Assembly: GCA_964552945.1 (NCBI GenBank) | Contig: CAZKIP010000004.1 | Span: 25,794 to 89,793, forward strand | Origin: an uncultured Methanosarcinales archaeon | GTDB lineage: Archaea > Nanobdellota > Nanobdellia > Woesearchaeales > GW2011-AR9 | Length of the DNA stretch: 64,000 nucleotides | Direction: 5' to 3' | Shown: positions 11,320-45,888 of the stretch, piece after piece | Layout: every line of letters starts with the position of its first letter | Position numbering within the stretch: the stretch's first letter is position 1 | The notes under the pieces: generated by a model | Told to the model about the DNA's origin: nothing | The model's input: the letters and a program-made list of their open reading frames with translations, nothing else | Database searches by the model: none | Position numbers and translations under genes: made by a program

Positions 11320-11997
11320 ATGAAAAAAATAATGGTGTTAGTGTTCTTCCTATTAGCAACCTCAGTAGTAGCACAAGTTTGCTTCTTAGAAAATGAAAGT
11401 TCTTATTATTGTCAAGAAATGGACAAAACTAAAGCCCAATCGATTTGTGAAGACGAATGCCAAATAAAAGAAACTCATTGCTCAACACTTCCAGAATGTC
11501 AACCTGTCTTTTGTCAAGATAATTGTAAAATCACTTTCAAAGGAGTCTGTGCAAAAGAAGTTCCTGCGGGAGAAGAAGCCAATTGTGTTGCACCAATAAA
11601 ACAAGAAGTTAAAGAAGTAAAAGAAGATTCATCAAACTCAGGACTATATTTCGTCATTTTTTTACTAGCGTTAATGGGGGGCATTTTCTGGTTTTTCAAA
11701 AAGCATCATGGAAATAGGACTGCTCAACAACCTCAAGGAGATAGCTGGGCTTCAACAATTATTCCAGAGTCAGAAGAAAGGCTTAATTGGTTAAAAAAAC
11801 AATTTGGAAAAAAGATGAAAAAGAAAAAAAGAGGACAAATTCTTTTCGAATTGGGGATTCCTTTGGACAACAAAACCCATGTTTCAAAATTAAGTAGGAT
11901 GATTAGGGCTCACGAGAATAAAAAGGATAAGAAAAAAGGAAAAACTTTTCATAATTTGGAAAAAATGGCTAGAGACAAATATTTTGGCAAAAAATAG
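11320..11997 (+). CDS. Membrane-anchored Cys-rich protein, paralogous to the N-terminal module of the 2140-aa giant
   Basis: Sec-type signal MKKIMVLVFFLLATSVVAQ. The Cys module CFLENESSYYCQEMDK...ECQ...PECQPVFCQDNCK aligns with CFLYKKASKGVYC...ECKDDC...PECKQVFCDLDC of the next gene. One TM (LYFVIFLLALMGGIFWFF) and a basic cytoplasmic tail. Confidence 0.55.
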   Translation: MKKIMVLVFFLLATSVVAQVCFLENESSYYCQEMDKTKAQSICEDECQIKETHCSTLPECQPVFCQDNCKITFKGVCAKEVPAGEEANCVAPIKQEVKEVKEDSSNSGLYFVIFLLALMGGIFWFFKKHHGNRTAQQPQGDSWASTIIPESEERLNWLKKQFGKKMKKKKRGQILFELGIPLDNKTHVSKLSRMIRAHENKKDKKKGKTFHNLEKMARDKYFGKK

Positions 11998-18000: not shown

Positions 18001-18476
18001 GAACTGGTTATTTAGTTTATTATTACTTATATTCTCCGCAGTCTAAAAAAGGAGAAACAGGGTTTGTAAGAACGGAACCAACAAAACAAGCGGTACAAAA
18101 ACCAGCAACTTTCAAAGAGAAATTCTTCGCTTGGAAGAAAAAAGACACTATTGAGAAATCTAAAGAGAAAAAGAGAAAATCGTTGTTTGGACAATTTTCA
18201 AAGTCTTCTTCAAGCATTCCTCCATTAGAAAAAGCTTTGAAGGGGAAAGGTTCTGACTTATCTCGTTTAGGTAACTTAGCACAACATTATTCCGAACATA
18301 AGGAGGAAATTAGGCCTGGGTTAAGGAAAGAAGAGAAAAATGTTTTTTCTAAATTGGACAAGATAGCTGGAAAAACAAAGGATAAAAAAATCCATGAAGT
18401 TGTTAGTAAGGATGAAGCAAAAGATATTTTTGGAAAGTTGAAAGATATCAGCAAAAAGAGAAAGAAAAGAAAATGA
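12054..18476 (+). CDS. Giant cell-surface protein (2140 aa) with a class III-like N-terminus, CarboxypepD_reg-like and FN3-like repeats, Ca-binding DxDxDG motifs, and a C-terminal TM plus Lys-rich tail
   Basis: N-terminus MNKQKRGMFIVVFSIFLLVLAISVSA. Two GVIKDVDGP...GKYSF...GTYPVEV-type repeats, and FN3-like LSWIKPCPEVEGYEVERK...YEYKIRAVY. DSDGDGVDDATQDYDDDG near the C-terminus. TM ILALILMLIGLLLILGGTGYLVYYYLY is followed by a ~170-aa K-rich tail. Confidence 0.65.
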   Translation: MNKQKRGMFIVVFSIFLLVLAISVSAEESGCFLYKKASKGVYCTSGILKSVAVKECKDDCDITKDFQEGKLCNLFPECKQVFCDLDCLEKPLGLCQEEGGKELSDDQYQSQCEAVCCVEKYPNVDQLVCNYPMTEQACKDKIKIKPGIYTPYHIAGGSEEDKAAKCQIDYCKEKLAEGSLEGVIKDVDGPVSATISLIGKDKTDSLADGKYSFPKLDPGTYPVEVSKEGYQTAQATISIGIGEKKSYDFTLNKLIIGAIVSGVVKDAQGQLVDGATVLWKGTSITGSTTTSAGGKFSANLPEGKFTFTANKVGFEQGSKELAVIKGTNKIELILTGTPKTILSGTAFLDKNSDNNLDANEKTPAVQIFIDGKLRASSQYEPLATYSIVMDLQKDEEQHSISATYLNGEYVFGPKSFKITKAGLQYDVLLKKLVGVCTADGTDPQKKVDTLNLNHLPGEIGVKLSWIKPCPEVEGYEVERKGAEGKTKKFIFNGAENSYVDKEGLEWLETYEYKIRAVYKDGGIKYSDYSPSKSIKLGQKECEGRYLKDWETFCEPHAPYQANQIYTCSNNNVIIPAKNCPPGLLCAPSNDPRKATCMGTDACFADLGLFGLQSTANQCYGIKDKGDSPKNFCYYDQTHTIVDSCKVCLELESCFDYKSKGACEINNCLTKPCEWVDAASNKEVLDYSQIFKGYDKDSLLTTKETGAGYCIEEKYDNDDKCSLCSSSASLLENFYCTAEVCTGLGRCFSNPPYLGKGALSSCNECGESPAKNTNCYTYGSKLECEGESPVNMDIKGKIIPSADNCNWGTCRWIGNNKDGKCVKDADVDKQVTDDCQGFKGADKDLCKSDNTPPKTSIVGDFTFTVSSVNTNVTLEGDESINKKGWQGNHLGVAGICLTSASSDKCLMENFVKKPYPGLKFKEEVTLNLYEQLKDKKIDGEIYLLKYFSQDRYFNQENVQEAQIYVDNVPPEFTIKSTKKTLGDTTDLSVFLEDLSEAMSCDFELTPLLPLGTKVNKAVSITEQKMVSFPGLKVVRADVKVTCKDSLGNENSKNKTFVFDLEKRIEILSPELESILSKTTLTFEVKTTIDATCSLFNQAKNQKVADFKASSDLKIHKTDAIPGFIEGDYSASHKVICTDVVTQGTMEDFFNFRVDFTPPNTEIILKEGKRVEKPVKYGWEEFFVKDVEVTLSCKADGFSCEKRFYCLGKGCGLKSTGKFVEYTAPFKVDKTTSICYFSKDKSGNEVVQPFCGKIIVEGYGLILESPPIKMFEDEIWGISNKPQFELRFTTKVSSKICKLGLSEGFDYDKVDLDRVLEGKGGKYIFPNFPSGSLGAYPEKGGVKTLYVVCEAGDGGLSPEHVVHIEYDPSAPEIIDQGAEPNKILKEKTTRLFATTDDKTFCRYSDNSAGDGSSDYLTMEYSFPGQDKNTLFKKHEQHYSISFVGLKKDYLFNVQCKNGADDFSKVEEIKFEVDYTEESKNDEKNDDGTDKVTEGFILKASPQGGYLQGTSANLFVETSKNAICRYKLGSEYQNFNVTGEKIHTSTLLSLPDKDYLIPVSCIMGKKTATALLSFTIDTTAPSVISVEDGNYTCGSKEWSVMVETSDNNISGYYYEIYDNGLIPSVAYKKIYGEQKSTQLGSGYTGYYSIYETFSEKNYSKFLTNKSKEIQKGVVYNKSVGPTLPLSIPVSEFKEDHIYYTKVWTWDAVKNQGNPKESDGIAVVQENSSFCVTTKENNVAPKVDYVVNDSSCLKTVVKLKCSSPTGCKSIEYGISTASSECQANKSYNGKNLLIKGKKWVCYTASDYTGINVSGKKLFTYVDQDGDSVRDKKTCDLCLKTPAGKIVGNDGCSLEQLTDEEAGKDEDKDGLPDSWEKLRSREGCLLSPFSKDSDGDGVDDATQDYDDDGRSNLQEYYAGTDPCVKDDDFFSDDLYKFDEEEDEKKVDDKKKDDKKKPTTGVSTTKEKEEESILALILMLIGLLLILGGTGYLVYYYLYSPQSKKGETGFVRTEPTKQAVQKPATFKEKFFAWKKKDTIEKSKEKKRKSLFGQFSKSSSSIPPLEKALKGKGSDLSRLGNLAQHYSEHKEEIRPGLRKEEKNVFSKLDKIAGKTKDKKIHEVVSKDEAKDIFGKLKDISKKRKKRK

Positions 18477-19021
18477 TGTTTGGAAAAAAAGGGATGGGTA
18501 TTGCACAGGCTTTTATTTTTATAGTTGTAGCTTTGACTTTCGCATTAATTATGATTTTTGGGTTTAAAGCAGTACAAGATTTTTTGGATAAAGGAGAAAA
18601 GGTAGTCTTTTTACAATTTAAAAATGATTTGGAAACTTCAGTGAAACAAATCTACACCAACTATGGGGCCGTAAGAATTAAAGATTTCCGAGCACCTGGC
18701 CAATATGAAAAGATTTGTTTTGTTAACATGGACATTAAACCCACTGAAGAGGATTTAGATGAACTCTTTCAGGAAGATTTCTATGCTAGTGAAGTATGGA
18801 GAGAAGCTTGGAGTAGAGACGATGTTACGGGAATTAAGGCTGTGGAAGAAAATGTTTTCCTTTCACCTAAAGTAGATACTATTCAAATGAAGATTCACAA
18901 AATCAAAATTTATGGAGAAAAGAATGAAGGATTTCTTTGTACAAAAATTGAAAAAGGATCTTTTCGTCTAGTCCTTGAAGGTAAAGGGGATAGTACGGAA
19001 TTATCCCTTCCCGAGCCTTGA
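18473..19021 (+). CDS. Pilin-like protein (class III signal)
   Basis: MMFGKKGMGIAQAFIFIVVALTFALIMIFG. Overlaps the upstream giant gene as ATGA. Confidence 0.5.
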   Translation: MMFGKKGMGIAQAFIFIVVALTFALIMIFGFKAVQDFLDKGEKVVFLQFKNDLETSVKQIYTNYGAVRIKDFRAPGQYEKICFVNMDIKPTEEDLDELFQEDFYASEVWREAWSRDDVTGIKAVEENVFLSPKVDTIQMKIHKIKIYGEKNEGFLCTKIEKGSFRLVLEGKGDSTELSLPEP

Positions 19022-19023
19022 TA

Positions 19024-20082
19024 ATGTTTAAAAAAGCCCAGATGCAGATTGGATTTAATTGGATTTTTGTTTTGATAGCTGGGGCGGTAATTTTACTTTT
19101 TTTTGTAGGTATTGTGGTTAAACAGCAACAAGTTTCTGAAGAAAATTTAGCAAGAGATATTGTAGGAACGATGGATTCAATATTTACTGCAGCTAGAGTT
19201 TCGGATAAAACTAAGAATGTAATTCCACTAAGAGGGTTAGAGAAAGAAATTTTATTGTTTAGTTGTGAGGATAGTGTTACCGAATTCTCGTTAAAAGACC
19301 AACCATTTAGGGAGCAGAATAATATTGACCCCCTTTTTTCGCCAAATGAAATAAAATCTTCAGAATTATTTTTAATAAGTTTGCCTTACAATTTACCCTA
19401 TAAAACTCTTGATTTTTTAATGCTAACTTCTCCAAGTGTGAAATATGTTTTGATTGGTAAAAAGGACTTGCCTTTTGTAGAAGAATTTCTTAATCAAACG
19501 GAAGGATTTAATGTAAAATATTTGCCAGAAGCCAAGTATGCTAAGTTGGACATAACTAGGGAGCTTCAGTTAAAAATTATTGATTTAGAAGGAGGCTTGA
19601 TTGTGGAAGGAGCCAAAGTTCCAGGAATTTTCGATGTGCTTGCAGATAAAAATGTTCGAGCAGTTTCTTTTTCAGGAAACCAGATTACTTATTATCAGAG
19701 GGAAGGAGATAGTTGGGCTTCTATGCATCAAGAACCTTTGCCTTTAATCTCTGTGGGAGGAGAGAGAGATGCCGCCAAATATGCCGCTATATTTGCTCAT
19801 GATGATTTGAATTATTGGTGTAACATGCAGAAGGCTTTCAACAGAATTTCTTTTGTTGATGAAATTTATCGTCAAAAAATAAAAGAGATGCTTCTGTATT
19901 ATGATAAAACAAAAAGTTCTTCCTGTGCTTCTGATACAAAATCTCTTTCTAAATCCTTAGAGGTTCATCAGGGACAAGCAGATATTTGTGAAAGGGATTC
20001 CTGTTCCGGATTTGTTGAAGAATCTAAGAAAATAAGAGAAACTAACCAGTTTTTGAAAGAATGTGAGATTCAATTATATTAA
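19024..20082 (+). CDS. Pilin-like protein (class III signal), 352 aa
   Basis: The tracked ORF starts at TTG 19018. The ATG at 19024 gives MFKKAQMQIGFNWIFVLIAGAVILLFFVG. Confidence 0.55.
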   Translation: MFKKAQMQIGFNWIFVLIAGAVILLFFVGIVVKQQQVSEENLARDIVGTMDSIFTAARVSDKTKNVIPLRGLEKEILLFSCEDSVTEFSLKDQPFREQNNIDPLFSPNEIKSSELFLISLPYNLPYKTLDFLMLTSPSVKYVLIGKKDLPFVEEFLNQTEGFNVKYLPEAKYAKLDITRELQLKIIDLEGGLIVEGAKVPGIFDVLADKNVRAVSFSGNQITYYQREGDSWASMHQEPLPLISVGGERDAAKYAAIFAHDDLNYWCNMQKAFNRISFVDEIYRQKIKEMLLYYDKTKSSSCASDTKSLSKSLEVHQGQADICERDSCSGFVEESKKIRETNQFLKECEIQLY

Positions 20083-20088
20083 ATAAAA

Positions 20089-20583
20089 ATGAAATTAAGC
20101 AAGAAAGCTCAAATAAGGATGACTGAAACAGTCTCGGTCTTATTCATTTTTTTTATTTTGGTAGCTTTTGGGATGCTTTTTTATGGGAAATATCAGGAAG
20201 GTGCAGTACTTGAGAAGGAAGAAGAGTTATTTGTTAAAAAAGCTCAAGATATTACCACTAAGCTGATTTATCTTCCCGAAATTGCTTGCACTAGAGGAGA
20301 TTCAGAGGCGGAAGCATTTTGTTTTGATTTGATGAAGTTAAGATCTGCCGGACAGGTGTTAGAAGATGATTACTATTTTGACATATTTTCATTTGCAAGA
20401 ATTACAATTAACCAAACTTATCCTAAAAAAGAGGAAGACATAATTATTTATGAAAGGCTTCCCAATGAAATTAAGAAAATCACCCCTTCAAGGTTTATAG
20501 TAGCTTTGAAAGATCAAAGTGAAGGAATTAATGGTGTTTCTTCATACCATTTTGGATTTGTTAAGGTGGAGGTTTTTTCATGA
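20089..20583 (+). CDS. Pilin-like protein (class III signal)
   Basis: MKLSKKAQIRMTETVSVLFIFFILVAFGMLFYG. Confidence 0.55.
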   Translation: MKLSKKAQIRMTETVSVLFIFFILVAFGMLFYGKYQEGAVLEKEEELFVKKAQDITTKLIYLPEIACTRGDSEAEAFCFDLMKLRSAGQVLEDDYYFDIFSFARITINQTYPKKEEDIIIYERLPNEIKKITPSRFIVALKDQSEGINGVSSYHFGFVKVEVFS

Positions 20584-21107
20584 ATCTCTTCTTTAAAAAA
20601 GGCCAGATGGAGATGGTTGGTTTGGTAGTTATCGTTATTCTTATTACGTTAGGGTTACTTTTTATGACCATTTTTGCTTTACAAAACGATGATAAGAAGG
20701 TTTTTACTCAGAAAGGGATAGCTGCTAGTACGATGGCTGCTTTAATGAAAACCACCATTTATGATTGTAATCAACCTAAACTTTCGTTAGAAAAAAAACT
20801 TCTTGATGATTGTGCAAAAAATCACGGGTTGCCAGAAGATTTATTTGAGTTTCATTGCGATGCTAAAAATAGTTGTGATTATTTAGAAGGGAAAATAACC
20901 GCTTTACTGAACGAAAGTTTGGGAAGGTGGGGTTTTCGTTACCAATATGAATCTACAGTTGTCCAAGGAGACGCGATTATTGGACCAATCGTTTCTTCCA
21001 GAGGAGGATGCGCTGCTAAAAAGATAGGGAGGGAAACCTCTAATCCATTCTTTCTTTCAGATGGGAAGGGAAGGTTGGTTAGAAGCGAATTATTCATCTG
21101 TGGATAG
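20580..21107 (+). CDS. Pilin-like protein (class III signal)
   Basis: MNLFFKKGQMEMVGLVVIVILITLGLLFM. ATGA overlap with the upstream gene. Confidence 0.6.
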   Translation: MNLFFKKGQMEMVGLVVIVILITLGLLFMTIFALQNDDKKVFTQKGIAASTMAALMKTTIYDCNQPKLSLEKKLLDDCAKNHGLPEDLFEFHCDAKNSCDYLEGKITALLNESLGRWGFRYQYESTVVQGDAIIGPIVSSRGGCAAKKIGRETSNPFFLSDGKGRLVRSELFICG

Positions 21108-21186
21108 TTGAAGATTTAGCAAAATTTATATAGGTTTATCTCTTTTTAAAAGGTAAATCGATATTTAAAAAACGAGGTGTAAAATT

Positions 21187-21537
21187 ATGTTTTCGAAAAA
21201 AGGTCAAGGTCTTTCATTAAATGTGATAATTATCGCGGCTTTAGCTCTGATAGTTCTGGTTGTTTTAGCAGCAGTTTTTATTGGTAGAATCACACCGGTA
21301 GGAGAAGATGTTGAAAGAGTAGGCAACACTGAATTGGTTAAAATGAAGCTTAAATATGGGACTTGCCATCCTAACGACGCAGAAGCGAACTCTTTTGTAA
21401 GTTCTTTTGGTCTAGCAGGATCTCCTGAAGATGGAGAGAAAGTTAAAGTTGAATTTAGTAATAAAATAAGTGATTGTAAAGAATTCAATGATGATCAGAA
21501 AAGTTGTGAAGCTTCTGGTGGATGTAGCTGGAAATAA
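21187..21537 (+). CDS. Pilin-like protein (class III signal), 116 aa; possible major subunit
   Basis: MFSKKGQGLSLNVIIIAALALIVLVVLAAVFIG. Has its own upstream AT-rich promoter-like region and a GAGGTG SD. Confidence 0.6.
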   Translation: MFSKKGQGLSLNVIIIAALALIVLVVLAAVFIGRITPVGEDVERVGNTELVKMKLKYGTCHPNDAEANSFVSSFGLAGSPEDGEKVKVEFSNKISDCKEFNDDQKSCEASGGCSWK

Positions 21538-21539
21538 AG

Positions 21540-21851
21540 ATGAATAAATCTTTTTTTTCTTTCCTTTTTGGGAAGAAAGCCTTAGCGAACATTTGGTGGA
21601 TTATTATTGGTGCAGTTCTGGCTTTAGTGGTTTTGATAGTTATATTACTTATTTTTACAGGAAAAACGACTCCCTTAGAACAAGGGTTACTTGATTGTGA
21701 AAGCAAAGGTGGACAATGTTTAAAGAAAGACGATTGTCTTAGCAAAAAGTACGATGGAACTGTCTCTTCAGCATTCGAATGCAGCGAGGGGAATGTTTGT
21801 TGTTTCACTCTTTTCAAAGAGACAGATAAAAAAGATTCGGATAATAAATGA
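21540..21851 (+). CDS. Pilin-like protein with a Cys-containing C-terminus
   Basis: MNKSFFSFLFGKKALANIWWIIIGAVLALVVLIVILLIF. C-terminus CESKGGQCLKKDDCLSKK...CSEGNVCCF. Confidence 0.5.
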   Translation: MNKSFFSFLFGKKALANIWWIIIGAVLALVVLIVILLIFTGKTTPLEQGLLDCESKGGQCLKKDDCLSKKYDGTVSSAFECSEGNVCCFTLFKETDKKDSDNK

Positions 21852-21870
21852 AAATATCAATAATAAAAAG

Positions 21871-21996
21871 ATGGTTTTTTCCAAGAAAGCACAGCTGATT
21901 ACCAAGGAAGCACTTTTGATTACTTTAGCGATTATTCTTTTTTTGTTGGTTTTTTATTTAGTGGTTGTTGAACCATTTATTTCAATAGGGATTTAA
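21871..21996 (+). CDS. Mini pilin-like protein (41 aa: signal plus helix only)
   Basis: MVFSKKAQLITKEALLITLAIILFLLVFYLVVV. In-frame ATG inside tracked ORF 21754..21996. Confidence 0.4.
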   Translation: MVFSKKAQLITKEALLITLAIILFLLVFYLVVVEPFISIGI

Positions 21997-22031
21997 AGAT
22001 GATAAATAGATGTTTATGTAATAAAAAGGGA

Positions 22032-22157
22032 ATGGCAAGATGGTTCTTAGCTTTTCTAATCCTTGCTTTAGTATTTTTAATTATGATGACGGTTTGGTTT
22101 GTTGCTTTGAAGGGGAATTTGGATTTTTTTTTTGATAAAATATTGGATTGGTTTTAA
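22032..22157 (+). CDS. Possible small single-TM protein (41 aa)
   Basis: MARWFLAFLILALVFLIMMTVWFVALKGNLDFFFDKILDWF. Not in the ORF track because it is under 60 aa. Fills the gap within the operon. Confidence 0.25.
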   Translation: MARWFLAFLILALVFLIMMTVWFVALKGNLDFFFDKILDWF

Positions 22158-23396
22158 ATGGGATTTGCATGGAGAAGATTGGGAGCAATACTTTTAGTGG
22201 TTATAGTGGTAGCTGTCGTTCTCACAATTGATAGTTCTACGTGGGGTGGAATTAAGGATGCTTTTGCTGATGCTGTGCTTAATAATAGTTTAAAGGTTGG
22301 CGGAAAGGACATAAAAGGAGTGAAACCAAAAGTCCCTCCAGACCACAAAGTTGCAATAGACTTATTGGTAGGGAGGATGAAAGACATGGCCAAATTGGAA
22401 GGCAATTATTGTTTTGCACAATATCAGAAACTTCCCCTCCTAAAGCAAACTACTTTACTTTTTGAAATGGACGGAGATAAAACACTTCTTCGTGTACTTG
22501 GTGGTGTTGGTGGTTTACAAGAAACAAATCTTAATTATGAACTTCCGCTAAAACTATGTGTTGTGGGGGGAGAACAAAACGGCGTTATTGTCTCTGAAGA
22601 CTTTTACAATACTTTTTTGGAACCAGATGGAGAAGCCCATAGCAATTTTTTTAAATCCGTAAACATTATTAAAATTGCCGGGGCCGATAATTCTAATAGG
22701 TTTAGTTATCTAGGGGTAGAAAATAAACTTGAAGATGGTGCTTGGTTATTCAAAGCTTCAGACAATCAAGTCTGCTTTTTCCCTGCCAGTTCAGACGAGG
22801 ATGAAGGAATTGATAGCGATTATTTAGTTGATAAGGAAGAAGAGAAAAGTATTTTTAACCAACTTAACAGAAATTCTTTGAAATGCCCCTCTTCTGAAGA
22901 TGATTGGCAGAAATATGAATCAATTGAAGTTACTGGTCTAAAATCAACTTCTGTTTCTCACGCAATCTCTCAGGGGTGTGAAGGATTGGTTGGAGAAGAT
23001 TGTCTTTCTGAAAGTGGCTGCAATGGAAAATATCCTGATATCTCTGGATTCAAGGAAGGTTGTGCCGTTTTTTCTACACGTGTTCATCTACCTTACGATG
23101 ATTGTGGAGCAGGAAAATCTCCCGAAGGACAAATTTTGTACCCCTATGGGAAGAATGTTCTTCAAAATAATGGCAATTTAAAATTGGTGCCTTATACATT
23201 TAAGGGTTTTGCTAGAACTAAAGAAATTGTTGAAAGTAACCTTTGGAAATCTTTTGACACTAAATCTTTAATTTGTGCAAAAAACGAATGGGTTGTATGT
23301 GATAGATTTCATTTAGATCAGGAATTTGTTGGTAAGGAAAAAACTTATCTTTGTAAGGAAGACAATGGGGTCATACTTTGGGAGGAAAAGACATGA
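22158..23396 (+). CDS. Secreted/membrane-anchored Cys-containing protein within the pilin operon
   Basis: MGFAWRRLGAILLVVIVVAVVLTI, an N-terminal TM. 412 aa with several Cys. ATGA overlap with the next gene. Confidence 0.45.
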   Translation: MGFAWRRLGAILLVVIVVAVVLTIDSSTWGGIKDAFADAVLNNSLKVGGKDIKGVKPKVPPDHKVAIDLLVGRMKDMAKLEGNYCFAQYQKLPLLKQTTLLFEMDGDKTLLRVLGGVGGLQETNLNYELPLKLCVVGGEQNGVIVSEDFYNTFLEPDGEAHSNFFKSVNIIKIAGADNSNRFSYLGVENKLEDGAWLFKASDNQVCFFPASSDEDEGIDSDYLVDKEEEKSIFNQLNRNSLKCPSSEDDWQKYESIEVTGLKSTSVSHAISQGCEGLVGEDCLSESGCNGKYPDISGFKEGCAVFSTRVHLPYDDCGAGKSPEGQILYPYGKNVLQNNGNLKLVPYTFKGFARTKEIVESNLWKSFDTKSLICAKNEWVVCDRFHLDQEFVGKEKTYLCKEDNGVILWEEKT

Positions 23397-24394
23397 AACG
23401 GCGCTTAAAAAGGTTTCTTAAAAGTAAGAGAGGAGTAGTTATGACTACTACTTTGGTTAAGATAACCGTTTTATTGATTTCCTTTATGTTAATAGGGGGA
23501 AGTATTGCGAGGTTTGCTTCTAAAGCAGGGGAGAAGGATACTGAAGCCATTTGTAGAACAAGTATAGATGCTAGAGTTGCTTCCATAACCAATGCTAAAC
23601 TTTTAGGAATTGAAGTGGAAGGAGTAAAATCTGTTCCAATGCTTTGTACTACTATCGATAAAAAACTTTCTGGCGAAAAGGAAGAGATAATGGATGATAT
23701 GGCGGAAATGATTTCTAGATGTTGGTGGATGTTCCGTTTGGGTAAAACCGCAGACTTGTTTAAATCCATCCCTGGAGTTGAAGGAGGAAATAAAGGGAAG
23801 ATTTGTTACACCGCTTTGATTAAAGACATCAAGGACGCAGATTATATTACTGGCCAAGAATTTTTTCAATATCTTTCCAAGAAACCTCATCCGGATATGG
23901 GTCCCGAAGAAACCTATACTGATTACGTTCAATATGCCGGTGGCCCAGGAAGAATTTTACTATTATTAAACCAGAAAAAAGGTGAAGCAACTGTAAAAAA
24001 AGATGCAGATTTACTCTCTCTCTTAAATGACGGGATCTCTGAAGGAGGAGTTTTCCAAGAAAATAATGCTTATGAGATTGCTTTCATAGAAAAAAGAGGT
24101 AATGAAAACGATTGGATTTCCTCCTCTTTAGTTGGAGGCGGTTCTGCGGCTGCAATAGGTGGTGGATTAGCAATTTGGGCGGGAGTAGCTACCGGCGGAA
24201 TTGGTTTGATTGTTTATGGTGTTGGTGCACTTGCTATAGGGGCTTATTCATTAGCTGAAGGAGCAGTGATTGAATTAGAAGATTTGTTTGCTCAAGAAGA
24301 TGTAAGCACAATAATTGTTGTTGATGTTTCAGACAAACAATTACAGAGAAAATTACATAAAAATGTTTTGCTTGACGATTCTGCAGGCAAGTAA
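23393..24394 (+). CDS. Pilin-like protein with a Gly-rich C-terminal TM segment
   Basis: The tracked ORF starts at TTG 23378. The ATG at 23393 gives MKRRLKRFLKSKRGVVMTTTLVKITVLLISFMLIGG. C-terminus GGGSAAAIGGGLAIWAGVATGGIGLIVYGVGALAIGAY is glycine-zipper-like. Confidence 0.45.
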   Translation: MKRRLKRFLKSKRGVVMTTTLVKITVLLISFMLIGGSIARFASKAGEKDTEAICRTSIDARVASITNAKLLGIEVEGVKSVPMLCTTIDKKLSGEKEEIMDDMAEMISRCWWMFRLGKTADLFKSIPGVEGGNKGKICYTALIKDIKDADYITGQEFFQYLSKKPHPDMGPEETYTDYVQYAGGPGRILLLLNQKKGEATVKKDADLLSLLNDGISEGGVFQENNAYEIAFIEKRGNENDWISSSLVGGGSAAAIGGGLAIWAGVATGGIGLIVYGVGALAIGAYSLAEGAVIELEDLFAQEDVSTIIVVDVSDKQLQRKLHKNVLLDDSAGK

Positions 24395-24406
24395 AAGGTG
24401 ATAAAG

Positions 24407-24676
24407 ATGAAAAATAAAAAAGGAGCCCTCTCTTGGGAGTATATTATAGTAGGCGTACTCGTTTTAGTAGTTCTAATTGTTGTTTTAATGATTTTTTCAA
24501 AAGGAGCGGAGAAAGGCGGAGATAGTTTGCTTGAAAAAATTGAAGGAACTAAACACGATACTGATAAAGATGGTGTGGCTAATTATTTAGACAAATGTCC
24601 TTGTGATCCTGAAGTGGGAGGAGAATGGACAGAAGATAAAGGTAGCATAGATAAGTGTACTCCTTGTACGGAATGA
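24407..24676 (+). CDS. Small pilin-like protein with a TSP3-like Ca-binding, Cys-containing C-terminus
   Basis: The tracked ORF starts at GTG 24398. The ATG at 24407 gives MKNKKGALSWEYIIVGVLVLVVLIVVLMIF, with Glu at +4 after the predicted cleavage. C-terminus DTDKDGVANYLDKCPCDPEVGG. Confidence 0.6.
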   Translation: MKNKKGALSWEYIIVGVLVLVVLIVVLMIFSKGAEKGGDSLLEKIEGTKHDTDKDGVANYLDKCPCDPEVGGEWTEDKGSIDKCTPCTE

Positions 24677-25314
24677 TTATAATGGTAAACAAAAGAGGAT
24701 TGATGTTAAATTTTTTAACTTCTCTACTCATAGCTATTTTTCTTTTTGGAACCGCTTTTGGAATTGTTTCAAAAGTTTTTAGGACAAGTTCGCAAGCAAA
24801 AGAAAGTTTTATAGAATTTTTGGAAGATATTGAAGATTTTTCAAATGGTGGTAAAGAGTTAGATAGTTCTTTATTGATTATGGATGAAGAAAGTTTAGTC
24901 ATACTTTTTAAAAATAAAGAGAGGAAATTGATTTTATCTCAGAGTAAAGCAGATTTTGATGCTAGTGTCACTTCATCATTTTTGGCACCAGATCCTGAAG
25001 AAATAAAAAAAAGGATTGATTGGAAATACAATTTTTATTTCTCATATCCTGCAAATTATTGCACTAAAGAGGAATGTGCTTGTTTATGTGATTCGTTTAG
25101 GATAGGACAGGCAAAATCTTATAATACCGATATTAAAAACGAGTTAATAGAACTTAGTGTTCCTTGTAAGAATTTATTTTGCAGAGAATTGGACGTTTCT
25201 TTGGAAGAAACTTGGTCCATTGACAGACAGAAAAAAGATAATAACATCTTCCGTCGCAGTTTGATTGAATTTACTAAGAATAGCAAAGGAGAAATAATTC
25301 TGGAGCAAAAATGA
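24673..25314 (+). CDS. Pilin-like protein
   Basis: MIIMVNKRGLMLNFLTSLLIAIFLFGTAFG. Alternative ATG at 24682. Cys-containing C-terminal part. Confidence 0.5.
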   Translation: MIIMVNKRGLMLNFLTSLLIAIFLFGTAFGIVSKVFRTSSQAKESFIEFLEDIEDFSNGGKELDSSLLIMDEESLVILFKNKERKLILSQSKADFDASVTSSFLAPDPEEIKKRIDWKYNFYFSYPANYCTKEECACLCDSFRIGQAKSYNTDIKNELIELSVPCKNLFCRELDVSLEETWSIDRQKKDNNIFRRSLIEFTKNSKGEIILEQK

Positions 25315-25718
25315 ATAAGAAAGGTGCAGGATTAATTGTGTTTATTTTAGAAATTGTTTTGGTAGTTTCCCTTATTTCCGTGTCTTCTTTTGCAGCAGTT
25401 AAATTATCTAGTGACGAAACTCTCGTGCAAATGAACCTAGCTAACGACATTAAAATGATGGTGGACGTTTTTATAGCTCTACCAGGAGATGCAGTAGTCG
25501 AAATTCCTTACAATACAGAGAAATATGTTGTTACACTACGACAGAAGGGAGTTGAAGTGAGGATAGGGGAAGAACTTTCTATTAAAAAAAGTTATTCTCT
25601 TCCTTTAGAATTTAGAGCAGCTAAGAAGTTGGAAAATGTTAAAACAATCTGTTTAGTTAAGAAAGAAAATATTATTACAATGAAAGAATGTGGAAAAGAT
25701 GAAAGGAGAACTTCATAA
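25311..25718 (+). CDS. Pilin-like protein
   Basis: MNKKGAGLIVFILEIVLVVSLISV. ATGA overlap. Confidence 0.6.
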   Translation: MNKKGAGLIVFILEIVLVVSLISVSSFAAVKLSSDETLVQMNLANDIKMMVDVFIALPGDAVVEIPYNTEKYVVTLRQKGVEVRIGEELSIKKSYSLPLEFRAAKKLENVKTICLVKKENIITMKECGKDERRTS

Positions 25719-26191
25719 TGAATAAGAAAGGTGTATCAGCATTTGATTTGGCTGGAAAATCAGTTTACTGGACCATTTCGGTGGTAGTTCTCACGGGAGT
25801 TATTTTAGCATTTATTGGAATGTTGGCAAGTTATTCAGCAGATTTAAGAAAAGTTCCAGAAGGTTTAGAGGTAGAATTGATTTCTTTACGTTTTACAAAT
25901 AGTCCAGATTGTTTCACTTACCAAGATGAAAAAAATGGGAGAATTTATCCTTTGGTGATTGATTTATCTAAATTTACCCAAAAGAGAATGGGCAATTGTT
26001 ATGCCACAAGCGAAGACCCAAAAATTGGATTTAAACAATTTAATTTTGCTTTGGAACTTTCTGGAAAAGAAGTTTTTAGTAACAATTTTGGTGGTAAGGA
26101 AGATTTCGTTTTGAAGAAAATTGTTTATCTTAAAAAAGAAAATGGTTTGGAAAAAGCTATTTTAAAAATTAAAGTACAGGAGAAAATCTAA
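25718..26191 (+). CDS. Pilin-like protein
   Basis: MNKKGVSAFDLAGKSVYWTISVVVLTGVILAFIG. TAATG overlap. Confidence 0.55.
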   Translation: MNKKGVSAFDLAGKSVYWTISVVVLTGVILAFIGMLASYSADLRKVPEGLEVELISLRFTNSPDCFTYQDEKNGRIYPLVIDLSKFTQKRMGNCYATSEDPKIGFKQFNFALELSGKEVFSNNFGGKEDFVLKKIVYLKKENGLEKAILKIKVQEKI

Positions 26192-26787
26192 TGTTTAATA
26201 AAAAAGGAGCTATGGTGGATGATGTCTTCGATTTCCTATTTTTAACTCTGGCCGCTTTTTTAACTTTATTTTTCTTTTATGGTTCTTTGCAAGATGGAAT
26301 CTCTCAATCAGAACTTCAAAGTTTACAAAATATGGAAGATTGGACTGCAAGAAGAGATTTTACTACTTTTTTATTTAGTCCTATGCAAGTTGAAGGAGCA
26401 ACAATTTCAACATCTCAGCTAATTTCTCAAGCAGATTTGGAAGAGTATAAGCAAGAAAGAATCAATTCTTTTCAAGAGAGTGCCGATAACTTTTTTACTG
26501 AAAAATATTCTTTTAAAAAGGAATATTGGTTAGATGAACCTACGGGAAATTTTCCTTGGTGGATTGAAATTTATTCAGAGAACGACCTTTCAGAAGAGCA
26601 AAAGTTGAAAGGAGACACTTTTAAAAGTACTCTTGCTCCGGTAGAAGGTTTCACTTATAATGCTGGATTTTGTGAACCAATTCGTACAGAATCGTTTATG
26701 TCTTTTAAAAAATCAATAGTCAAAAAAGGCCCAAGAAATTTTATCTTGTCTTTTTGTAGTGGGAGGGAGTATGTTGTTAAGGATTAA
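26191..26787 (+). CDS. Pilin-like protein
   Basis: MFNKKGAMVDDVFDFLFLTLAAFLTLFFFYG. Confidence 0.55.
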   Translation: MFNKKGAMVDDVFDFLFLTLAAFLTLFFFYGSLQDGISQSELQSLQNMEDWTARRDFTTFLFSPMQVEGATISTSQLISQADLEEYKQERINSFQESADNFFTEKYSFKKEYWLDEPTGNFPWWIEIYSENDLSEEQKLKGDTFKSTLAPVEGFTYNAGFCEPIRTESFMSFKKSIVKKGPRNFILSFCSGREYVVKD

Positions 26788-27919
26788 TAAAAAAGGAGCA
26801 TTGTTTCATTGGATTGTCCTAGGCTTGTTACTAGCTACAGGCCTCTTTTTTATGAATTTTGGTGAAGTAAATAAAGATGCAATTAAAGGAGAATGGCAAA
26901 TTTCTTTTTTGAACAATGTTTTTTTACCAGCGGAACATAATCTTCTTTCAAATGATGATCAAATTAGAATCATTTCACAACAAACATTGCTTGATTTAGG
27001 AGCCAAAGGTTGTGGAGAGGAAATATATCCTTTATGGGATGATAAAGATTGTTTAGATAGTGTCAAAGCAGATGATGTTTTTTCAGCTGAAATAAAGAAA
27101 CGACTTTCTCAAACATTTCCAGAAAGGTCTTATCATGATATTGAAGTAAAAAAGAATCAAGTTTCTGGAGAGGGCAATAGGGGAGAAGTAATAAACAAAA
27201 AAGGTTTCTTTGCTAATTATAGTTACGATACAGACTTTTCTGTTGATTTAGGTTACGATTTTGATGAGTTTAGGCAAGTTTTATTCGATTCAGAAGAGAT
27301 AGTATCAAAATGTAAAAATTCGCCTAATATGGAGGGATGCTTAAATAAAGAATTTTCCAAGAAGGAAATCAACTGGGGAGAGAATTTGTGTAAAAACGAT
27401 GACAAATTATTTTATGGTTTATATCTGGAATATCAAAGATGTTTAGAAACTTCTGATGATAATTGTTTATGTAGTTTGAACTTGGTAGAACATAATCTTG
27501 AAGATTATTTGCTTGAATTTAACCAGAAAAATGATAAATTAGAAATAACAAATGGGAAAGAAAGTTACCAGATTGAGCTAGGAAATAAGTTCCACATAAC
27601 TCCTTCAACTTTAAAAATTTCTGGGAAAGAAGCTGAATTGTTTTTTCCAAATAAAGGTGGTCAGCAAAGAGATTACACTTTGGTTATAAAAAATAATTTG
27701 GTTCTTCTTAAGAGAGGAGGCAAATTGGATTTTGTAAATTTGAAGAATAACGAAATTAGGTTATGGAATAACAAAATTGAGAGATTAAACAATCCTTTTG
27801 TTTGTTCACAAAAAAACCCTTCAGAGAAAAATTTATGCGTAGAATCGAACACAAAAGTTTTCGATATGAGAGGAAATTTGTTACCAATCAGATATAGATT
27901 TGCTCTAAATTTTGGATAA
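26771..27919 (+). CDS. Pilin-like protein, ~382 aa; last gene of the array
   Basis: The tracked ORF starts at GTG 26759. The ATG at 26771 gives MLLRINKKGALFHWIVLGLLLATGLFFMNF. Cys-containing globular domain. Confidence 0.55.
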   Translation: MLLRINKKGALFHWIVLGLLLATGLFFMNFGEVNKDAIKGEWQISFLNNVFLPAEHNLLSNDDQIRIISQQTLLDLGAKGCGEEIYPLWDDKDCLDSVKADDVFSAEIKKRLSQTFPERSYHDIEVKKNQVSGEGNRGEVINKKGFFANYSYDTDFSVDLGYDFDEFRQVLFDSEEIVSKCKNSPNMEGCLNKEFSKKEINWGENLCKNDDKLFYGLYLEYQRCLETSDDNCLCSLNLVEHNLEDYLLEFNQKNDKLEITNGKESYQIELGNKFHITPSTLKISGKEAELFFPNKGGQQRDYTLVIKNNLVLLKRGGKLDFVNLKNNEIRLWNNKIERLNNPFVCSQKNPSEKNLCVESNTKVFDMRGNLLPIRYRFALNFG

Positions 27920-27952: not shown

Positions 27953-27983
27953 ATTTTTATTGCCATTGTAAAGGGTGGTTTTA

Positions 27984-45887: not shown

Positions 45888-45888
45888 C

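What the first reader, a model, noticed from the sequence alone, without database searches (positions are those of the whole stretch)
18473..27919. 9.4-kb operon of at least 15 translationally coupled genes, all with archaeal class III (type IV prepilin-like) N-termini
Every gene in the run begins with M-x(1-4)-[KR][KR]-[GA]-[QALVM] followed by a 20-25 residue hydrophobic helix. Examples are MFKKAQMQIGFNWIFVLIAGAVILLFFVG, MNLFFKKGQMEMVGLVVIVILI, MFSKKGQGLSLNVIIIAALALIVLVVL, MKNKKGALSWEYIIVGVLVLVVL and MNKKGAGLIVFILEIVLVV. This is the signature recognised by archaeal prepilin peptidases (PibD/FlaK/EppA), where Gly/Ala at -1 and often Gln at +1 is the EppA-type pilin pattern. Sizes range from 41 to ~385 aa. 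Many have Cys-rich globular C-termini, and one has Glu at +4. Neighbours overlap as ATGA or TAATG (19021/19024, 20580, 23393, 25311, 25718, 26191), which indicates a single operon. That many distinct pilin-like subunits in one array is unusual. It suggests a complex multi-subunit surface filament or adhesion fibre rather than a simple pilus.
Basis: partly seen in the sequence, partly recalled or inferred. Interest (0 to 1): 0.85.

Follow-up and report, generated by a model that had tools for sequence, protein, structure and literature searches.

The report
Conserved pilin-like gene cluster, Woesearchaeota
A run of 16 genes in an uncultivated DPANN (Woesearchaeota) archaeon all encode surface proteins with pilin-type N-termini; together with a giant membrane-anchored protein they form an unannotated gene cluster kept in the same order in hundreds of related genomes, most likely specifying a multi-subunit surface fibre or attachment apparatus.

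Summary
Window 18473-27919 (+) carries 16 tightly packed genes. Fifteen start with a short basic leader ending [KR][KR][G/A], followed by a ~20-residue hydrophobic helix. The motif occurs in no gene of the window outside 742-27919.

The host is a Woesearchaeota/Nanoarchaeota archaeon. The cluster is larger than reported. It includes a translationally coupled 2140-aa membrane-anchored giant protein, a 784-aa class III-like protein and a 225-aa protein. Gene order is the same in 41 of 41 fully sampled related loci, and 266 species-level genomes carry the g2 marker.

It splits into two modules: giant protein plus g1-g4, and g5-g16. The leader and helix are conserved per family, often more than the rest of the protein. 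The heads are unrelated to each other and match no Pfam, NCBIfam or PDB family.

AlphaFold gives g2 a 56-residue N-terminal helix on a globular body, and g5 a small disulfide-bonded helical head. One g13 orthologue carries a VWA adhesion module.

No assembly ATPase, platform protein or prepilin peptidase lies in the window or in any fetched locus. Processing and filament formation are therefore inferred, not shown.

Best reading (about 0.55): a lineage-specific type-IV-filament-like surface apparatus whose machinery is encoded elsewhere. Main rival: uncleaved signal-anchored envelope proteins.

The parts
7583..9937 (+). u784: a 784-aa class III-like protein (MKKRG-QITIFIILG...) with a Cys-rich C-terminal half. 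It belongs to the conserved cluster.
   Evidence: It was hit by the motif scan. Orthologues were found in 28 of 41 full loci. Their N-termini are K[GA]-QITxFMILG. In some genomes the gene lies downstream of g16 instead of upstream. It has no Pfam or NCBIfam hit.
11320..11997 (+). u225: a 225-aa secreted or anchored protein with a Sec-type signal. It shares a Cys-rich N-terminal domain with the giant protein.
   Evidence: BLASTP against u2140 gives E 1e-6 over the N-terminal 90 aa. Orthologues of 284-455 aa occur in 19 of 41 loci.
12054..18476 (+). u2140: a giant 2140-aa surface protein. It has a signal peptide with a KKRG n-region and an AxA-like site, CarboxypepD_reg/Ig-like domains, many Cys, one C-terminal TM helix and a K/R-rich cytoplasmic tail of about 155 aa. 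Its stop overlaps the g1 start.
   Evidence: Pfam CarboxypepD_reg scores E 3e-23. There is a partial match to the Kustd1514 S-layer glycoprotein family, E 7e-11. It is present in 41 of 41 full loci at 2039-2175 aa. Orthologue N-termini were inspected. TM helix and tail are conserved, with a median tail of 159 aa. The ATGA overlap with g1 is shown.
18473..19021 (+). g1: a 182-aa class III-like protein. Orthologue consensus is NKKG-MGVGQVF, with no acidic residue in the helix.
   Evidence: It is found in 40 of 41 loci. Helix identity is 0.70 against 0.49 for the rest of the protein.
19024..20082 (+). g2: a 352-aa class III-like protein. Consensus is KKG-QIEVTFNWIYILIAGAVILLFF, with six invariant Cys.
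   Evidence: Alignment A1. The AlphaFold model has pLDDT 92.8, helix 4-59, beta domains 63-240 and C-terminal helices 250-347. It is found in 41 of 41 loci and in 266 species genomes. The family has 1,828 clusters at 50% identity.
20089..20583 (+). g3: a 164-aa class III-like protein. Consensus is KKG-QIQMTETI, with Glu at +6 in 98% of orthologues.
   Evidence: 41 of 41 loci.
20580..21107 (+). g4: a 175-aa class III-like protein. Consensus is KKG-QMEMIGLV, with Glu at +3 in 94% of orthologues. It is the last gene of module A.
   Evidence: 41 of 41 loci. The cluster ends after g4 in L041, L045 and L050.
21121..21132 (+). AAAATTTATATA, a TATA/BRE-like element in the 79-nt g4-g5 gap. A GAGGTG Shine-Dalgarno-like motif follows before g5. 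This is a candidate internal promoter of module B.
   Evidence: Read by eye from the sequence. It is a consensus resemblance only. It is consistent with the module split seen in other genomes.
21187..21537 (+). g5: a 116-aa class III-like protein and candidate major subunit. Consensus is SKKG-QGLSLNVIIVAALALIVLVVL, with four invariant Cys.
   Evidence: Alignments A2 and A3. The AlphaFold model has pLDDT 80.8, helix 11-34 and a small helical head. Helix identity is 0.81 against 0.40 for the rest. It is the first gene after the gap.
21540..21851 (+). g6: a 103-aa class III-like protein (KKA-SANMWWII) with a Cys-rich head. Its N-terminal module is paralogous to those of g5 and g11.
   Evidence: hhalign: g5-g6 98.3%, g6-g11 98.6%, N-terminal region only.
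21871..21996 (+). g7: a 41-aa class III-like mini-protein, consisting of leader plus helix only.
   Evidence: A class III-like ORF of about 40 aa is conserved at this position.
21999..22157 (+). g8: a 52-aa class III-like mini-protein. Consensus is KKG-MEMWQLVLIIL.
   Evidence: Two small class III-like ORFs lie between g6 and g9 in 41 of 52 loci.
22158..23396 (+). g9: a 412-aa N-terminally anchored, Cys-rich protein of variable length. Most orthologues lack the KKG motif.
   Evidence: 5 of 58 orthologues have the motif. Lengths range from 122 to 725 aa.
23393..24394 (+). g10: a 333-aa protein with a class III-like N-terminus and also Gly-rich C-terminal TM helices. It is probably a membrane-embedded component.
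   Evidence: A C-terminal TM segment is present in 46 of 55 orthologues.
24407..24676 (+). g11: an 89-aa class III-like protein with a thrombospondin type 3-like Ca-binding motif. Orthologues reach 487 aa.
   Evidence: Pfam TSP_3 scores E 8e-5, below the curated cut-off. Lengths range from 85 to 487 aa. Long variants give weak CARDB hits.
24682..25314 (+). g12: a 210-aa class III-like protein (an alternative start lies at 24673). Consensus is NKKG-IMVKFLV.
25311..25718 (+). g13: a 135-aa class III-like protein. Consensus is NKKA-VSILMMIFE. Some orthologues carry added modules.
   Evidence: The orthologue L016:17385-18932 (515 aa) has a VWA domain, E 4e-12.
25718..26191 (+). g14: a 157-aa class III-like protein.
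   Evidence: 38 of 47 orthologues have the motif.
26191..26787 (+). g15: a 198-aa class III-like protein. Consensus is KKG-MMDDLFDF.
26771..27919 (+). g16: a 382-aa class III-like protein and the last gene of module B. Consensus is NKKG-ALFHWI. Orthologues fall into two size classes, about 250 and about 385 aa.

Best explanation
The region encodes the structural parts of a surface apparatus specific to Woesearchaeota (GTDB Nanoarchaeota, Woesearchaeales-like). It is built from type-IV-pilin-like (class III signal peptide) proteins.

**Proposed mechanism.**
1. Each of about 15-17 proteins is inserted N-in/C-out.
2. Its short basic leader is removed after the conserved Gly/Ala by a class III signal peptidase (FlaK/PibD/EppA type) encoded elsewhere.
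3. The conserved hydrophobic N-terminal helices then pack together outside the membrane into a filament or short pseudopilus-like stalk. This is driven by a FlaI/PilB-type ATPase and FlaJ/PilC-type platform, also encoded elsewhere.

**Module A** is the 2140-aa membrane-anchored giant protein plus g1-g4, with u784 and u225. It would be the conserved core. By analogy with bacterial PilY1 plus four minor pilins it could act as the tip, the priming complex or the anchor.

**Module B** is g5-g16.
- g5 is the likely major subunit. It is small, the first gene after a promoter-like gap, and has the most conserved helix.
- g6-g8 are small partners.
- g10 is a membrane-embedded component.
- g9, g11, g13 and g16 have variable lengths and sometimes carry adhesion modules. 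They would be exposed binding subunits.

**Shown:** gene anatomy, motif, conservation, synteny, predicted long N-terminal helix, and an extracellular-type Cys pattern.

**Inferred:** cleavage, filament formation, the role of each subunit, and a function in attachment to surfaces or host cells.
For: - **Motif.** It is present in 15 of 16 genes and in no gene of the window outside 742-27919.
- **Motif conservation.** It is kept in orthologues of 14 families, present in 72/77 to 67/67 members for most of them. G6 and Q7 are near-invariant to invariant in g5, and Q6 is invariant in g2.
- **Helix conservation.** In g1-g6, g8, g12, g15 and u784 the hydrophobic helix is more conserved than the remainder (identity 0.41-0.81 against 0.18-0.49). 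The bona fide Sec-type u225 gives 0.23 against 0.28. The helix is therefore retained and constrained.
- **Acidic residues.** Conserved acidic residues sit near the start of the helix: g4 E+3 in 94%, g3 E+6 in 98%, g8 E+2 in 84%, g15 DD. Glu5 plays such a role in bacterial pilins (PMC10191384).
- **Shared N-terminal module.** Profile-profile comparison links the families only through the N-terminal 30-60 residues. This is the pilin pattern of a shared helix with unrelated heads.
- **g2 model.** A continuous helix 4-59 packs on a globular body, pLDDT 92.8.
- **g5 model.** It has a small helical head. An all-helical head has a precedent in Com major pilins.
- **Extracellular heads.** Even numbers of invariant Cys in the heads point to an extracellular location.
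- **Modular variant.** A VWA domain is grafted on a g13 orthologue. This is the same architecture as the modular tip pilin PilB of S. sanguinis.
- **Synteny.** Order is strict in 41 full loci, and 266 species genomes carry the g2 marker.
- **Machinery in the lineage.** Published Woesearchaeota MAGs mostly carry flaI, flaJ and flaK (PMC11606122).
- **Precedent.** Archaeal type IV filament loci with S-layer-like proteins or large adhesins are known.
Against: - No curated pilin, archaellin or class III model matches any member. Pfam and NCBIfam were run at E<=1, and 135 orthologue N-termini were scanned.
- A PDB profile search found nothing.
- No ATPase, platform or A24 peptidase gene lies in the 64-kb window, in the 10 kb to its right, or in any related locus fetched. 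The ATPase and peptidase tests in the loci were simple motif searches.
- One preprint states that type IV pilus components are missing in DPANN genomes.
- The KKRG n-region also occurs on the giant protein, whose signal otherwise looks Sec/SPase I-type. The basic-Gly motif alone is therefore not diagnostic in this lineage.
- g10 has additional TM helices, and g7 and g8 are little more than a helix.
- In g9-g11, g13 and g14 the helix is no more conserved than the rest of the protein.
Confidence: 0.55

Rival explanations
1. The proteins are uncleaved signal-anchored (type II, N-in/C-out) membrane proteins. Together with the giant membrane-anchored protein, which may be the S-layer protein, they form a membrane-proximal envelope complex that spaces, anchors or organises the S-layer. 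No filament forms and no prepilin peptidase or assembly ATPase is involved.
For: - No machinery genes lie anywhere near the cluster in the window or in any related locus fetched.
- No pilin model or pilin fold is matched.
- g10 is polytopic.
- g7 and g8 are essentially single helices.
- The giant protein has a TM anchor and a conserved cytoplasmic tail, and gives a weak S-layer-family hit.
- The KKRG n-region is also used by a protein with a Sec-like signal.
- A positive n-region is expected for any N-in anchor.
- One preprint states that DPANN lack type IV pilus components.
Against: - A plain anchor does not explain the near-fixed Gly/Ala at the end of the leader or the frequent Gln at +1 across 14 families.
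- It does not explain conserved acidic residues inside the first turns of the helix.
- It does not explain the 56-residue continuous helix that runs from the membrane segment into the globular body of g2.
- It does not explain the modular VWA variant typical of tip pilins.
- Woesearchaeota MAGs are reported to carry flaI, flaJ and flaK.
Confidence: 0.25
2. The proteins are processed class III proteins, but they do not form a long adhesive pilus. They build a short pseudopilus or a bindosome-like envelope assembly used for uptake (DNA, nutrients) or secretion at the contact site with a host. This would be analogous to bacterial Com or T2SS pseudopili, or to the Sulfolobus bindosome.
For: - Many distinct subunits kept in fixed order fit a defined machine better than a homopolymeric fibre.
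- The pattern of four conserved small subunits plus a large partner resembles the T2SS, Com and T4aP minor-pilin sets.
- The g5 helical head resembles the Com-type all-helical pilin head only in being all-helical.
- An RPA-like ssDNA-binding gene lies directly downstream of g16 in 24 of 42 loci.
- Class III signals on non-filament proteins are known from the Sulfolobus bindosome (PMC3047682, abstract listed).
Against: - There is no homology to any Com, T2SS or Bas component.
- No DNA channel, nuclease or binding-protein domain was detected.
- The RPA gene has its own TATA-like element and is probably the housekeeping RPA.
- The adhesion-type modules (VWA, weak CARDB and TSP3 hits) point to binding rather than transport.
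Confidence: 0.15
3. The array is an artefact: chance ORFs or a low-complexity, AT-rich region that mimics the motif.
For: The window has 30-36% G+C, which favours Lys codons and long spurious ORFs.
Against: - Every gene has orthologues at 36-54% identity in the same order in dozens of genomes.
- Public pipelines called the same genes.
- The motif is absent from the opposite strand and from the rest of the window.
- The AlphaFold models are confident.
Confidence: 0.01

Closest known systems
Epd pili of Methanococcus maripaludis (archaeal type IV filament 'system 1'; EppA-processed pilins)
   Same: - The leaders are short and basic, end in Lys-Gly and are followed by Gln at +1 (here in g2-g5, g7 and u784).
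- Several different pilin-like genes sit in one co-transcribed cluster.
- Some subunits carry adhesin-like domains.
- System 1 is reported from some DPANN.
   Different: - The Epd cluster has 11 genes and includes its own peptidase, ATPase and two platform genes. Here there are 16-17 class III-like genes plus a giant protein and no machinery gene.
- The curated class III and pilin models are not matched.
- The acidic residue is at +2, +3 or +6 rather than +5.
Bacterial T4aP / T2SS / Com minor-pilin sets (PilHIJK + PilC/PilY1; PulHIJK; ComGD-GG)
   Same: - Four conserved small pilin-like proteins are encoded together with a large non-pilin surface protein (module A: u2140 + g1-g4).
- They are separate from a small candidate major subunit (g5).
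- One subunit (g1) lacks the acidic helix residue, as does the capping minor pilin.
   Different: - There is no sequence or fold similarity.
- The giant protein has its own signal peptide, a C-terminal membrane anchor and a cytoplasmic tail, unlike PilY1.
- Twelve further subunits follow.
- The comparison is an analogy of layout only.
Modular type IV pilins (S. sanguinis PilB with a vWA module)
   Same: - An N-terminal pilin-type module has a functional adhesion domain grafted on.
- One g13 orthologue carries a VWA domain.
- The g9, g11 and g13 families vary three- to eight-fold in length.
   Different: - The hosts here are archaeal.
- The window's own g13 (135 aa) has no added module.
- Most added regions match no known domain.
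Archaeal type IV filament loci with S-layer-like or large adhesin genes (Makarova et al. 2016 clade 4 systems; 'system 2' of the 2026 MacSyFinder survey)
   Same: Pilin-like genes are co-located with a very large surface protein.
   Different: - Those loci are defined around an ATPase and a TadC/platform gene. Here neither is present within the cluster in any of the loci examined.
- Woesearchaeota were not among the genomes discussed.
Lineage-specific hypothetical protein modules of Woesearchaeota/Pacearchaeota (Castelle et al. 2021, Module 98)
   Same: These are families of unknown function, many predicted to be membrane or secreted proteins, restricted to these DPANN lineages. The families found here probably belong to such modules.
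   Different: - That work lists families by presence and absence. The main text read here does not mention pili or pilins and describes no such cluster or class III-type N-termini.
- The identity of the families with Module 98 was not checked.

Membership tests
Archaeal class III signal peptide / type IV pilin-like proteins | A short, positively charged leader ends in a small residue (Gly/Ala/Ser) preceded by Lys/Arg. | tested here: met
   Met in 15 of 16 window genes. The feature is conserved in orthologues of 14 families, with consensus [NS]KK[GA].
Archaeal class III signal peptide / type IV pilin-like proteins | A hydrophobic stretch of about 20 residues follows the cleavage site directly. 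It is retained in the mature protein as the N-terminal half of a long alpha-helix. | tested here: met
   The hydrophobic 18-mer is present in all members. The helix is more conserved than the rest in 9 families plus u784. The g2 model has helix 4-59. The g5 model has helix 11-34, a low-confidence break, then helix 40-54.
Archaeal class III signal peptide / type IV pilin-like proteins | Match to curated models of archaeal pilin or archaellin N-termini (Pfam Class_IIIsignal PF04021, Pilin_N PF07790, Arch_flagellin PF01917, Flp1_like PF16982; NCBIfam/TIGRFAM equivalents). | tested here: not met
   No hit at E<=1 for any window protein. Among 135 orthologue N-termini only 5 gave weak Flp1_like hits, within the noise of generic TM matches.
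Archaeal class III signal peptide / type IV pilin-like proteins | Globular head of a known pilin fold (alpha-beta roll), or similarity to a solved pilin. | tested here: not met
Archaeal class III signal peptide / type IV pilin-like proteins | Cleavage by a PibD/FlaK/EppA-type (A24) peptidase. | not testable with these tools
   No A24-like gene lies in the window or the fetched loci. The literature reports flaK in most Woesearchaeota MAGs of one study. This genome could not be searched.
Type IV filament system (pilus/pseudopilus) | Presence of an assembly ATPase (FlaI/PilB family) and a platform protein (FlaJ/PilC/TadC family) in the locus or the genome. | tested here: inconclusive
   Absent from the window, from 10 kb beyond its right end, and from the related loci fetched, by motif search. 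Genome-wide presence could not be tested. Published statements conflict.
Sec-type (SPase I) signal peptides | A variable h-region is followed by an AxA-like cleavage site, and the signal is not retained. | tested here: not met
   This is not met for g1-g6, g8, g12 and g15, where the h-region is highly conserved. By contrast u2140 and u225 do show variable h-regions followed by small-x-small sites. No SignalP-type predictor was available.
Archaeal S-layer glycoprotein (for the 2140-aa protein) | An abundant, lattice-forming surface protein with a C-terminal membrane anchor, and similarity to known S-layer families. | tested here: inconclusive
   A signal peptide, a C-terminal TM helix and Ig-like domains are present. 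The only family match is partial, to Kustd1514 S-layer glycoprotein: 40 bits against a cut-off of 1400. Abundance and lattice formation are not testable.

The most novel reading that the evidence does not exclude
The cluster may specify a previously undescribed organelle confined to the Woesearchaeota lineage (g2 relatives carry only Woesearchaeota/Nanoarchaeota labels). It would be an envelope-spanning stalk or fibre of fixed composition, built from about 17 different class III-type proteins around a 2100-residue protein that is anchored in the membrane and has a cytoplasmic tail. It could be assembled without a dedicated neighbouring ATPase and could serve as the contact or uptake device of these putative symbionts. 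It would be a new branch, or a functional offshoot, of the type IV filament superfamily whose subunits no existing model recognises.
Probability: 0.3. Interest if true: 0.85.

Novelty: new variant of a known kind. Interest (0 to 1): 0.66.

Why it matters
Woesearchaeota are among the most widespread uncultivated archaea and are thought to depend on other cells. How they attach to or exchange material with partners is unknown, and one preprint has stated that DPANN lack type IV pilus components.

A strictly syntenic cluster of about 20 genes, whose g2 marker is found in at least 266 species-level genomes, gives a concrete candidate for their cell-surface apparatus. It is made of 16-17 pilin-type proteins plus a giant anchored protein.

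It also shows that current pilin models and type-IV-filament finders miss a whole set of families. The g2 family alone has about 1,800 clusters at 50% identity. These families could be added to annotation pipelines.

Testable targets follow from the analysis:
- g5 as the candidate major subunit.
- g1-g4 plus the giant protein as the candidate core complex.
- g9, g11 and g13 as candidate specificity determinants.

Tried and rejected
- **Family searches.** Pfam and NCBIfam scans of all 16 proteins and the flanking large proteins gave no meaningful family. The exceptions were CarboxypepD_reg in the giant protein and a sub-threshold TSP_3 hit in g11.
- **Orthologue N-termini.** A Pfam scan of 135 orthologue N-termini showed no consistent pilin model.
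- **PDB sequence search.** A profile search with the g5 family found only transmembrane-helix noise.
- **Structure prediction.** It was repeated with database proteins.
- **Machinery.** I looked at Pfam on the remaining window proteins, motif searches for T2SE-type ATPases and A24 peptidases in the window and all fetched loci, and a walk off both window ends. The right side gave 10 kb with no relevant gene. The recovered contigs end near the left edge.
- **Bacterial signals.** Sigma-70 promoter and intrinsic terminator scans did not exceed shuffled controls, as expected for an archaeon.
- **Paralogy.** I considered that the heads are paralogues and rejected it. BLASTP and hhalign link the families only through the N-termini.
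- **Giant protein.** I considered that it is itself a class III protein. Its h-region is variable and followed by an AxA-like site, so Sec-type is more likely. The invariant KKRG remains unexplained.
- **YdjM hydrolase.** I considered the downstream YdjM membrane hydrolase as a processing enzyme. It follows the cluster in only 10 of 42 loci and nothing else supports the idea.
- **Literature.** Eight searches found no description of this cluster.

Full report
**1. What is in the sequence**

The window is AT-rich, 30-36% G+C, and archaeal. It carries an archaeal RNase P RNA and RadA, aRF1, aIF5A, NAC, SecDF and an RPA-type ssDNA-binding protein. Identical contigs come from a JGI metagenome and two public runs. 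Relatives of its proteins are labelled Candidatus Woesearchaeota, Nanoarchaeota or Nanoarchaeia. Some related MAGs are labelled 'uncultured Methanosarcinales', which looks like mislabelling.

Between 18473 and 27919 there are 16 co-directional genes (g1-g16). Junctions run from -17 to +19 nt, except for a 79-nt gap before g5. Public gene callers found the same 16 genes.

**2.

I scanned all six frames for M-x(0-12)-[KR][KR][GA] followed by a hydrophobic 18-mer. The scan hit 15 of the 16 genes, three genes just upstream, and nothing else in 64 kb. g9 has RRLG-A instead.

In 34 related loci the same strict test marks a median of 11 ORFs on the cluster strand and 0 on the opposite strand.

The count (16), the size range (41-412 aa) and the leader length (up to about 13 residues) need small corrections.

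**3. The cluster is larger, ancient and modular**

The stop codon of a 2140-aa gene (12054-18476) overlaps the g1 start, AAAATGATG.

A profile of the g2 family found relatives in 266 species-level genomes of the GTDB collection. It also found 1,828 clusters at 50% identity among 1.84 billion representative proteins. All named hits are hypothetical proteins.

Searching the window's proteins against the ORFs of the fetched loci shows one order everywhere: (u784, u225) - u2140 - g1 - g2 - g3 - g4 - g5 - g6 - (two mini-genes) - g9 ... g16. Among 41 loci with full flanks the counts are:

| Gene | Loci |
|---|---|
| u2140 | 41 |
| g1 | 40 |
| g2-g4 | 41 |
| g5, g6 | 38 |
| g9 | 35 |
| g10 | 38 |
| g11 | 34 |
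| g12 | 33 |
| g13 | 38 |
| g14 | 34 |
| g16 | 32 |

The two mini-genes are too short for phmmer. Class III-like ORFs of about 40 and 48 aa nevertheless sit between g6 and g9 in 41 of 52 loci. u784- and u225-like genes can lie after g16 instead of before the giant gene.

The cluster breaks at one place only, between g4 and g5.
- In L041, L045 and L050 nothing of g5-g16 follows g4. In L041 replication genes follow instead.
- In L056 five opposite-strand genes are inserted there: two histidine-phosphatase-like, two radical-SAM-like and a glycosyltransferase.
- In the window this is the 79-nt gap. It holds AAAATTTATATA and a GAGGTG Shine-Dalgarno-like motif. That is a resemblance to an archaeal promoter, not a demonstration.

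I therefore treat it as two modules. Module A is the giant protein plus g1-g4, with u784 and u225. Module B is g5-g16.

**4. Are the N-termini class III signals?**

*For.*
- The leader consensus in orthologues at 36-54% identity is [NS]KK[GA]. My extraction required a small residue at -1. The unbiased alignments of g2 and g5 show the same columns: Q6 is invariant in g2, and G6 and Q7 are near-invariant to invariant in g5.
- Each family has its own conserved helix after that point. Examples are g2 QIEVTFNWIYILIAGAVILLFF, g5 QGLSLNVIIVAALALIVL and g13 VSILMMIFE.
- In g1-g6, g8, g12, g15 and u784 this segment is clearly more conserved than the rest of the protein (0.41-0.81 against 0.18-0.49). 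In the plainly Sec-type u225 it is less conserved (0.23 against 0.28). The segment therefore stays in the mature protein and is under strong constraint, as in pilins.
- Several families keep an acidic residue in the first turns of the helix: g4 E+3 94%, g3 E+6 98%, g8 E+2 84%, g15 DD. That is costly in a simple anchor. It recalls Glu5 of bacterial pilins.
- hhalign links the families through the first 30-60 residues only.
- AlphaFold2 predicts g2 (pLDDT 92.8) with one helix from residue 4 to 59, followed by beta-rich domains and a C-terminal helical region.

*Against.*
- No curated model of archaeal pilins, archaellins or class III signals matches. This holds for the window proteins at E<=1 and for 135 orthologue N-termini.
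- The g5 model (pLDDT 80.8) has a helical, disulfide-bonded head and a low-confidence break after the membrane helix. An all-helical head is known for Com pilins, but this is a similarity of type only.
- The orthologues of the giant protein carry a near-invariant KKRG too. It is followed by a variable h-region and an AxA-like site before a conserved GCYxYP domain. The basic-Gly n-region by itself therefore does not identify class III substrates in this lineage. I have no explanation for its invariance there.

**5. What the individual parts suggest**

- **Extracellular heads.** Invariant Cys occur in even numbers (six in g2, four in g5), which points to extracellular heads.
- **Giant protein.** It has a signal peptide, two CarboxypepD_reg domains, an fn3-like stretch, many Cys, one C-terminal TM helix and a K/R-rich cytoplasmic tail. 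The tail length is conserved at a median of 159 aa. A partial hit to an S-layer glycoprotein family is far below threshold.
- **g10.** It has Gly-rich C-terminal TM helices in 46 of 55 orthologues, so it must stay in the membrane.
- **Variable families.** g9 (122-725 aa), g11 (85-487), g13 (64-526) and g16 (two size classes) vary in length. g1-g6 do not.
- **Adhesion modules.** One long g13 orthologue carries a VWA domain, E 4e-12. Long g11 variants give weak CARDB hits. The window's g11 has a sub-threshold thrombospondin type 3 motif. A pilin module with a grafted VWA domain is exactly the architecture of the tip adhesin PilB of S. sanguinis.

**6. Machinery**

None was found.
- The rest of the window has no A24 peptidase, secretion ATPase or platform protein. 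It has only a MinD/ParA-type ATPase 33 kb away.
- Ten kb beyond the right edge holds housekeeping genes. Contigs end near the left edge.
- Motif searches for T2SE-type ATPases and A24 peptidases in the window and all fetched loci were empty.
- I could not search whole genomes.

The literature is split. A 2024 study reports flaB, flaH, flaI, flaJ and flaK in most Woesearchaeota MAGs, with 'archaellin' and S-layer genes among the most expressed. A 2020 preprint says type IV pilus components are missing in DPANN. A 2026 survey places 'system 1' (Epd-like) in some DPANN.

At lineage level it is probably not met.

**7. Most likely mechanism**

My confidence in this reading is about 0.55. The proteins are class III substrates. 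After leader removal their conserved helices assemble into a heteromeric filament or stalk of the type IV filament kind.

Module A is the conserved core. Its layout, a large non-pilin protein plus four small conserved pilin-like proteins, parallels PilY1 plus PilHIJK, PulHIJK and ComGD-GG. This is an analogy of layout, not homology.

Module B supplies the probable major subunit g5, small partners, a membrane component (g10) and variable, sometimes modular, binding subunits.

The likely function is attachment to surfaces or partner cells, by inference from the adhesion modules and the lifestyle proposed for these archaea.

The main rival (0.25) is a non-filamentous envelope complex of uncleaved signal-anchored proteins around the giant protein. 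An artefact is excluded by the conservation.

**8. Comparison with what is known, and novelty**

The class III or pilin-like protein is a known kind. Archaeal loci that combine pilins with S-layer-like proteins or large adhesins have also been described.

Several things are new here:
- The number of distinct class III-type genes: 16-17 in one array, against 11 genes in the whole Epd cluster including its machinery.
- Their strict synteny, with the marker gene found across at least 266 species.
- The coupling to a 2100-residue protein that is anchored in the membrane and has a cytoplasmic tail.
- The absence of any adjacent machinery.
- The fact that no existing model or solved structure recognises any member.

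Earlier protein-family surveys noted many lineage-specific hypothetical families in Woesearchaeota and Pacearchaeota. None of the papers I searched or read describes this cluster.

I rate it a new variant of a known kind, with interest 0.66. It would rise if cleavage and a filament were shown, or if the apparatus proved independent of the canonical ATPase.

Noticed in passing
window 12054-18476, and orthologues in L004-L087: The giant protein's signal peptide keeps a near-invariant (K/Q)KRG n-region across about 60 orthologues. Its h-region is variable and is followed by an AxA-like site. The 1772-aa protein at 742-6060 also begins MKRG. It is unclear whether this is a shared targeting or processing signal or a lineage habit.
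   Followed up: partly
window 27975-28973 and 29005-29460: An RPA-like OB-fold/Zn-ribbon ssDNA-binding gene lies directly downstream of g16 in 24 of 42 related loci. A YdjM-family membrane hydrolase follows it in 10. This is probably conserved synteny without a functional link, but it is worth noting given the DNA-uptake roles of some pilus systems.
   Followed up: partly
L056 12239-16723: Five opposite-strand genes are inserted exactly between the g4 and g5 orthologues: two histidine-phosphatase-like, two radical-SAM-like and one glycosyltransferase. They could be a modification cassette for the surface proteins.
   Followed up: no
window 29581-29991: A cold-shock-domain protein has a C-terminal tail of (PAEEA)n. 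The tail is encoded by a 15-nt tandem repeat at 29785-29958, 11.6 copies.
   Followed up: no
window 63529-63867 (-): An archaeal RNase P RNA is present (Rfam RF00373, 138.9 bits). There is no tRNA gene anywhere in the 64 kb.
   Followed up: yes
window 742-6060 (+): A second giant secreted protein of 1772 aa, Cys-rich and without any Pfam hit, lies upstream of the cluster. phmmer found matches in only 3 fetched loci, most of them copies of the same contig. It appears strain-specific rather than part of the conserved cluster.
   Followed up: partly
window 6026-6484 (-) and 6576-7550 (+): Two Lrp/AsnC-type regulators are transcribed divergently just upstream of the 784-aa class III-like gene. They are candidate regulators of the cluster. 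They are not conserved at this position in other loci.
   Followed up: partly
window 44099-48068: There is a cluster of folate and thymidylate genes: serine hydroxymethyltransferase, DHFR, ThyA-type thymidylate synthase and FolC. A 243-aa polytopic membrane protein without a family match lies next to it at 48087-48818. The gene names are read from the translations and were not tested against family models.
   Followed up: no
window 9938-11245 (-) and 30959-31225 (+): Two putative lipoproteins have lipobox-like LPAC and LIVGC motifs. The 435-aa one is inserted on the opposite strand inside the conserved cluster, between u784 and u225. It was found in no other locus.
   Followed up: partly
window 60392-61608 (-): A MinD/ParA-type ATPase is translationally coupled to a 166-aa four-helix membrane protein. 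A published suggestion is that some archaeal type IV filament systems depend on MinD-like ATPases. No link to the cluster was tested.
   Followed up: no
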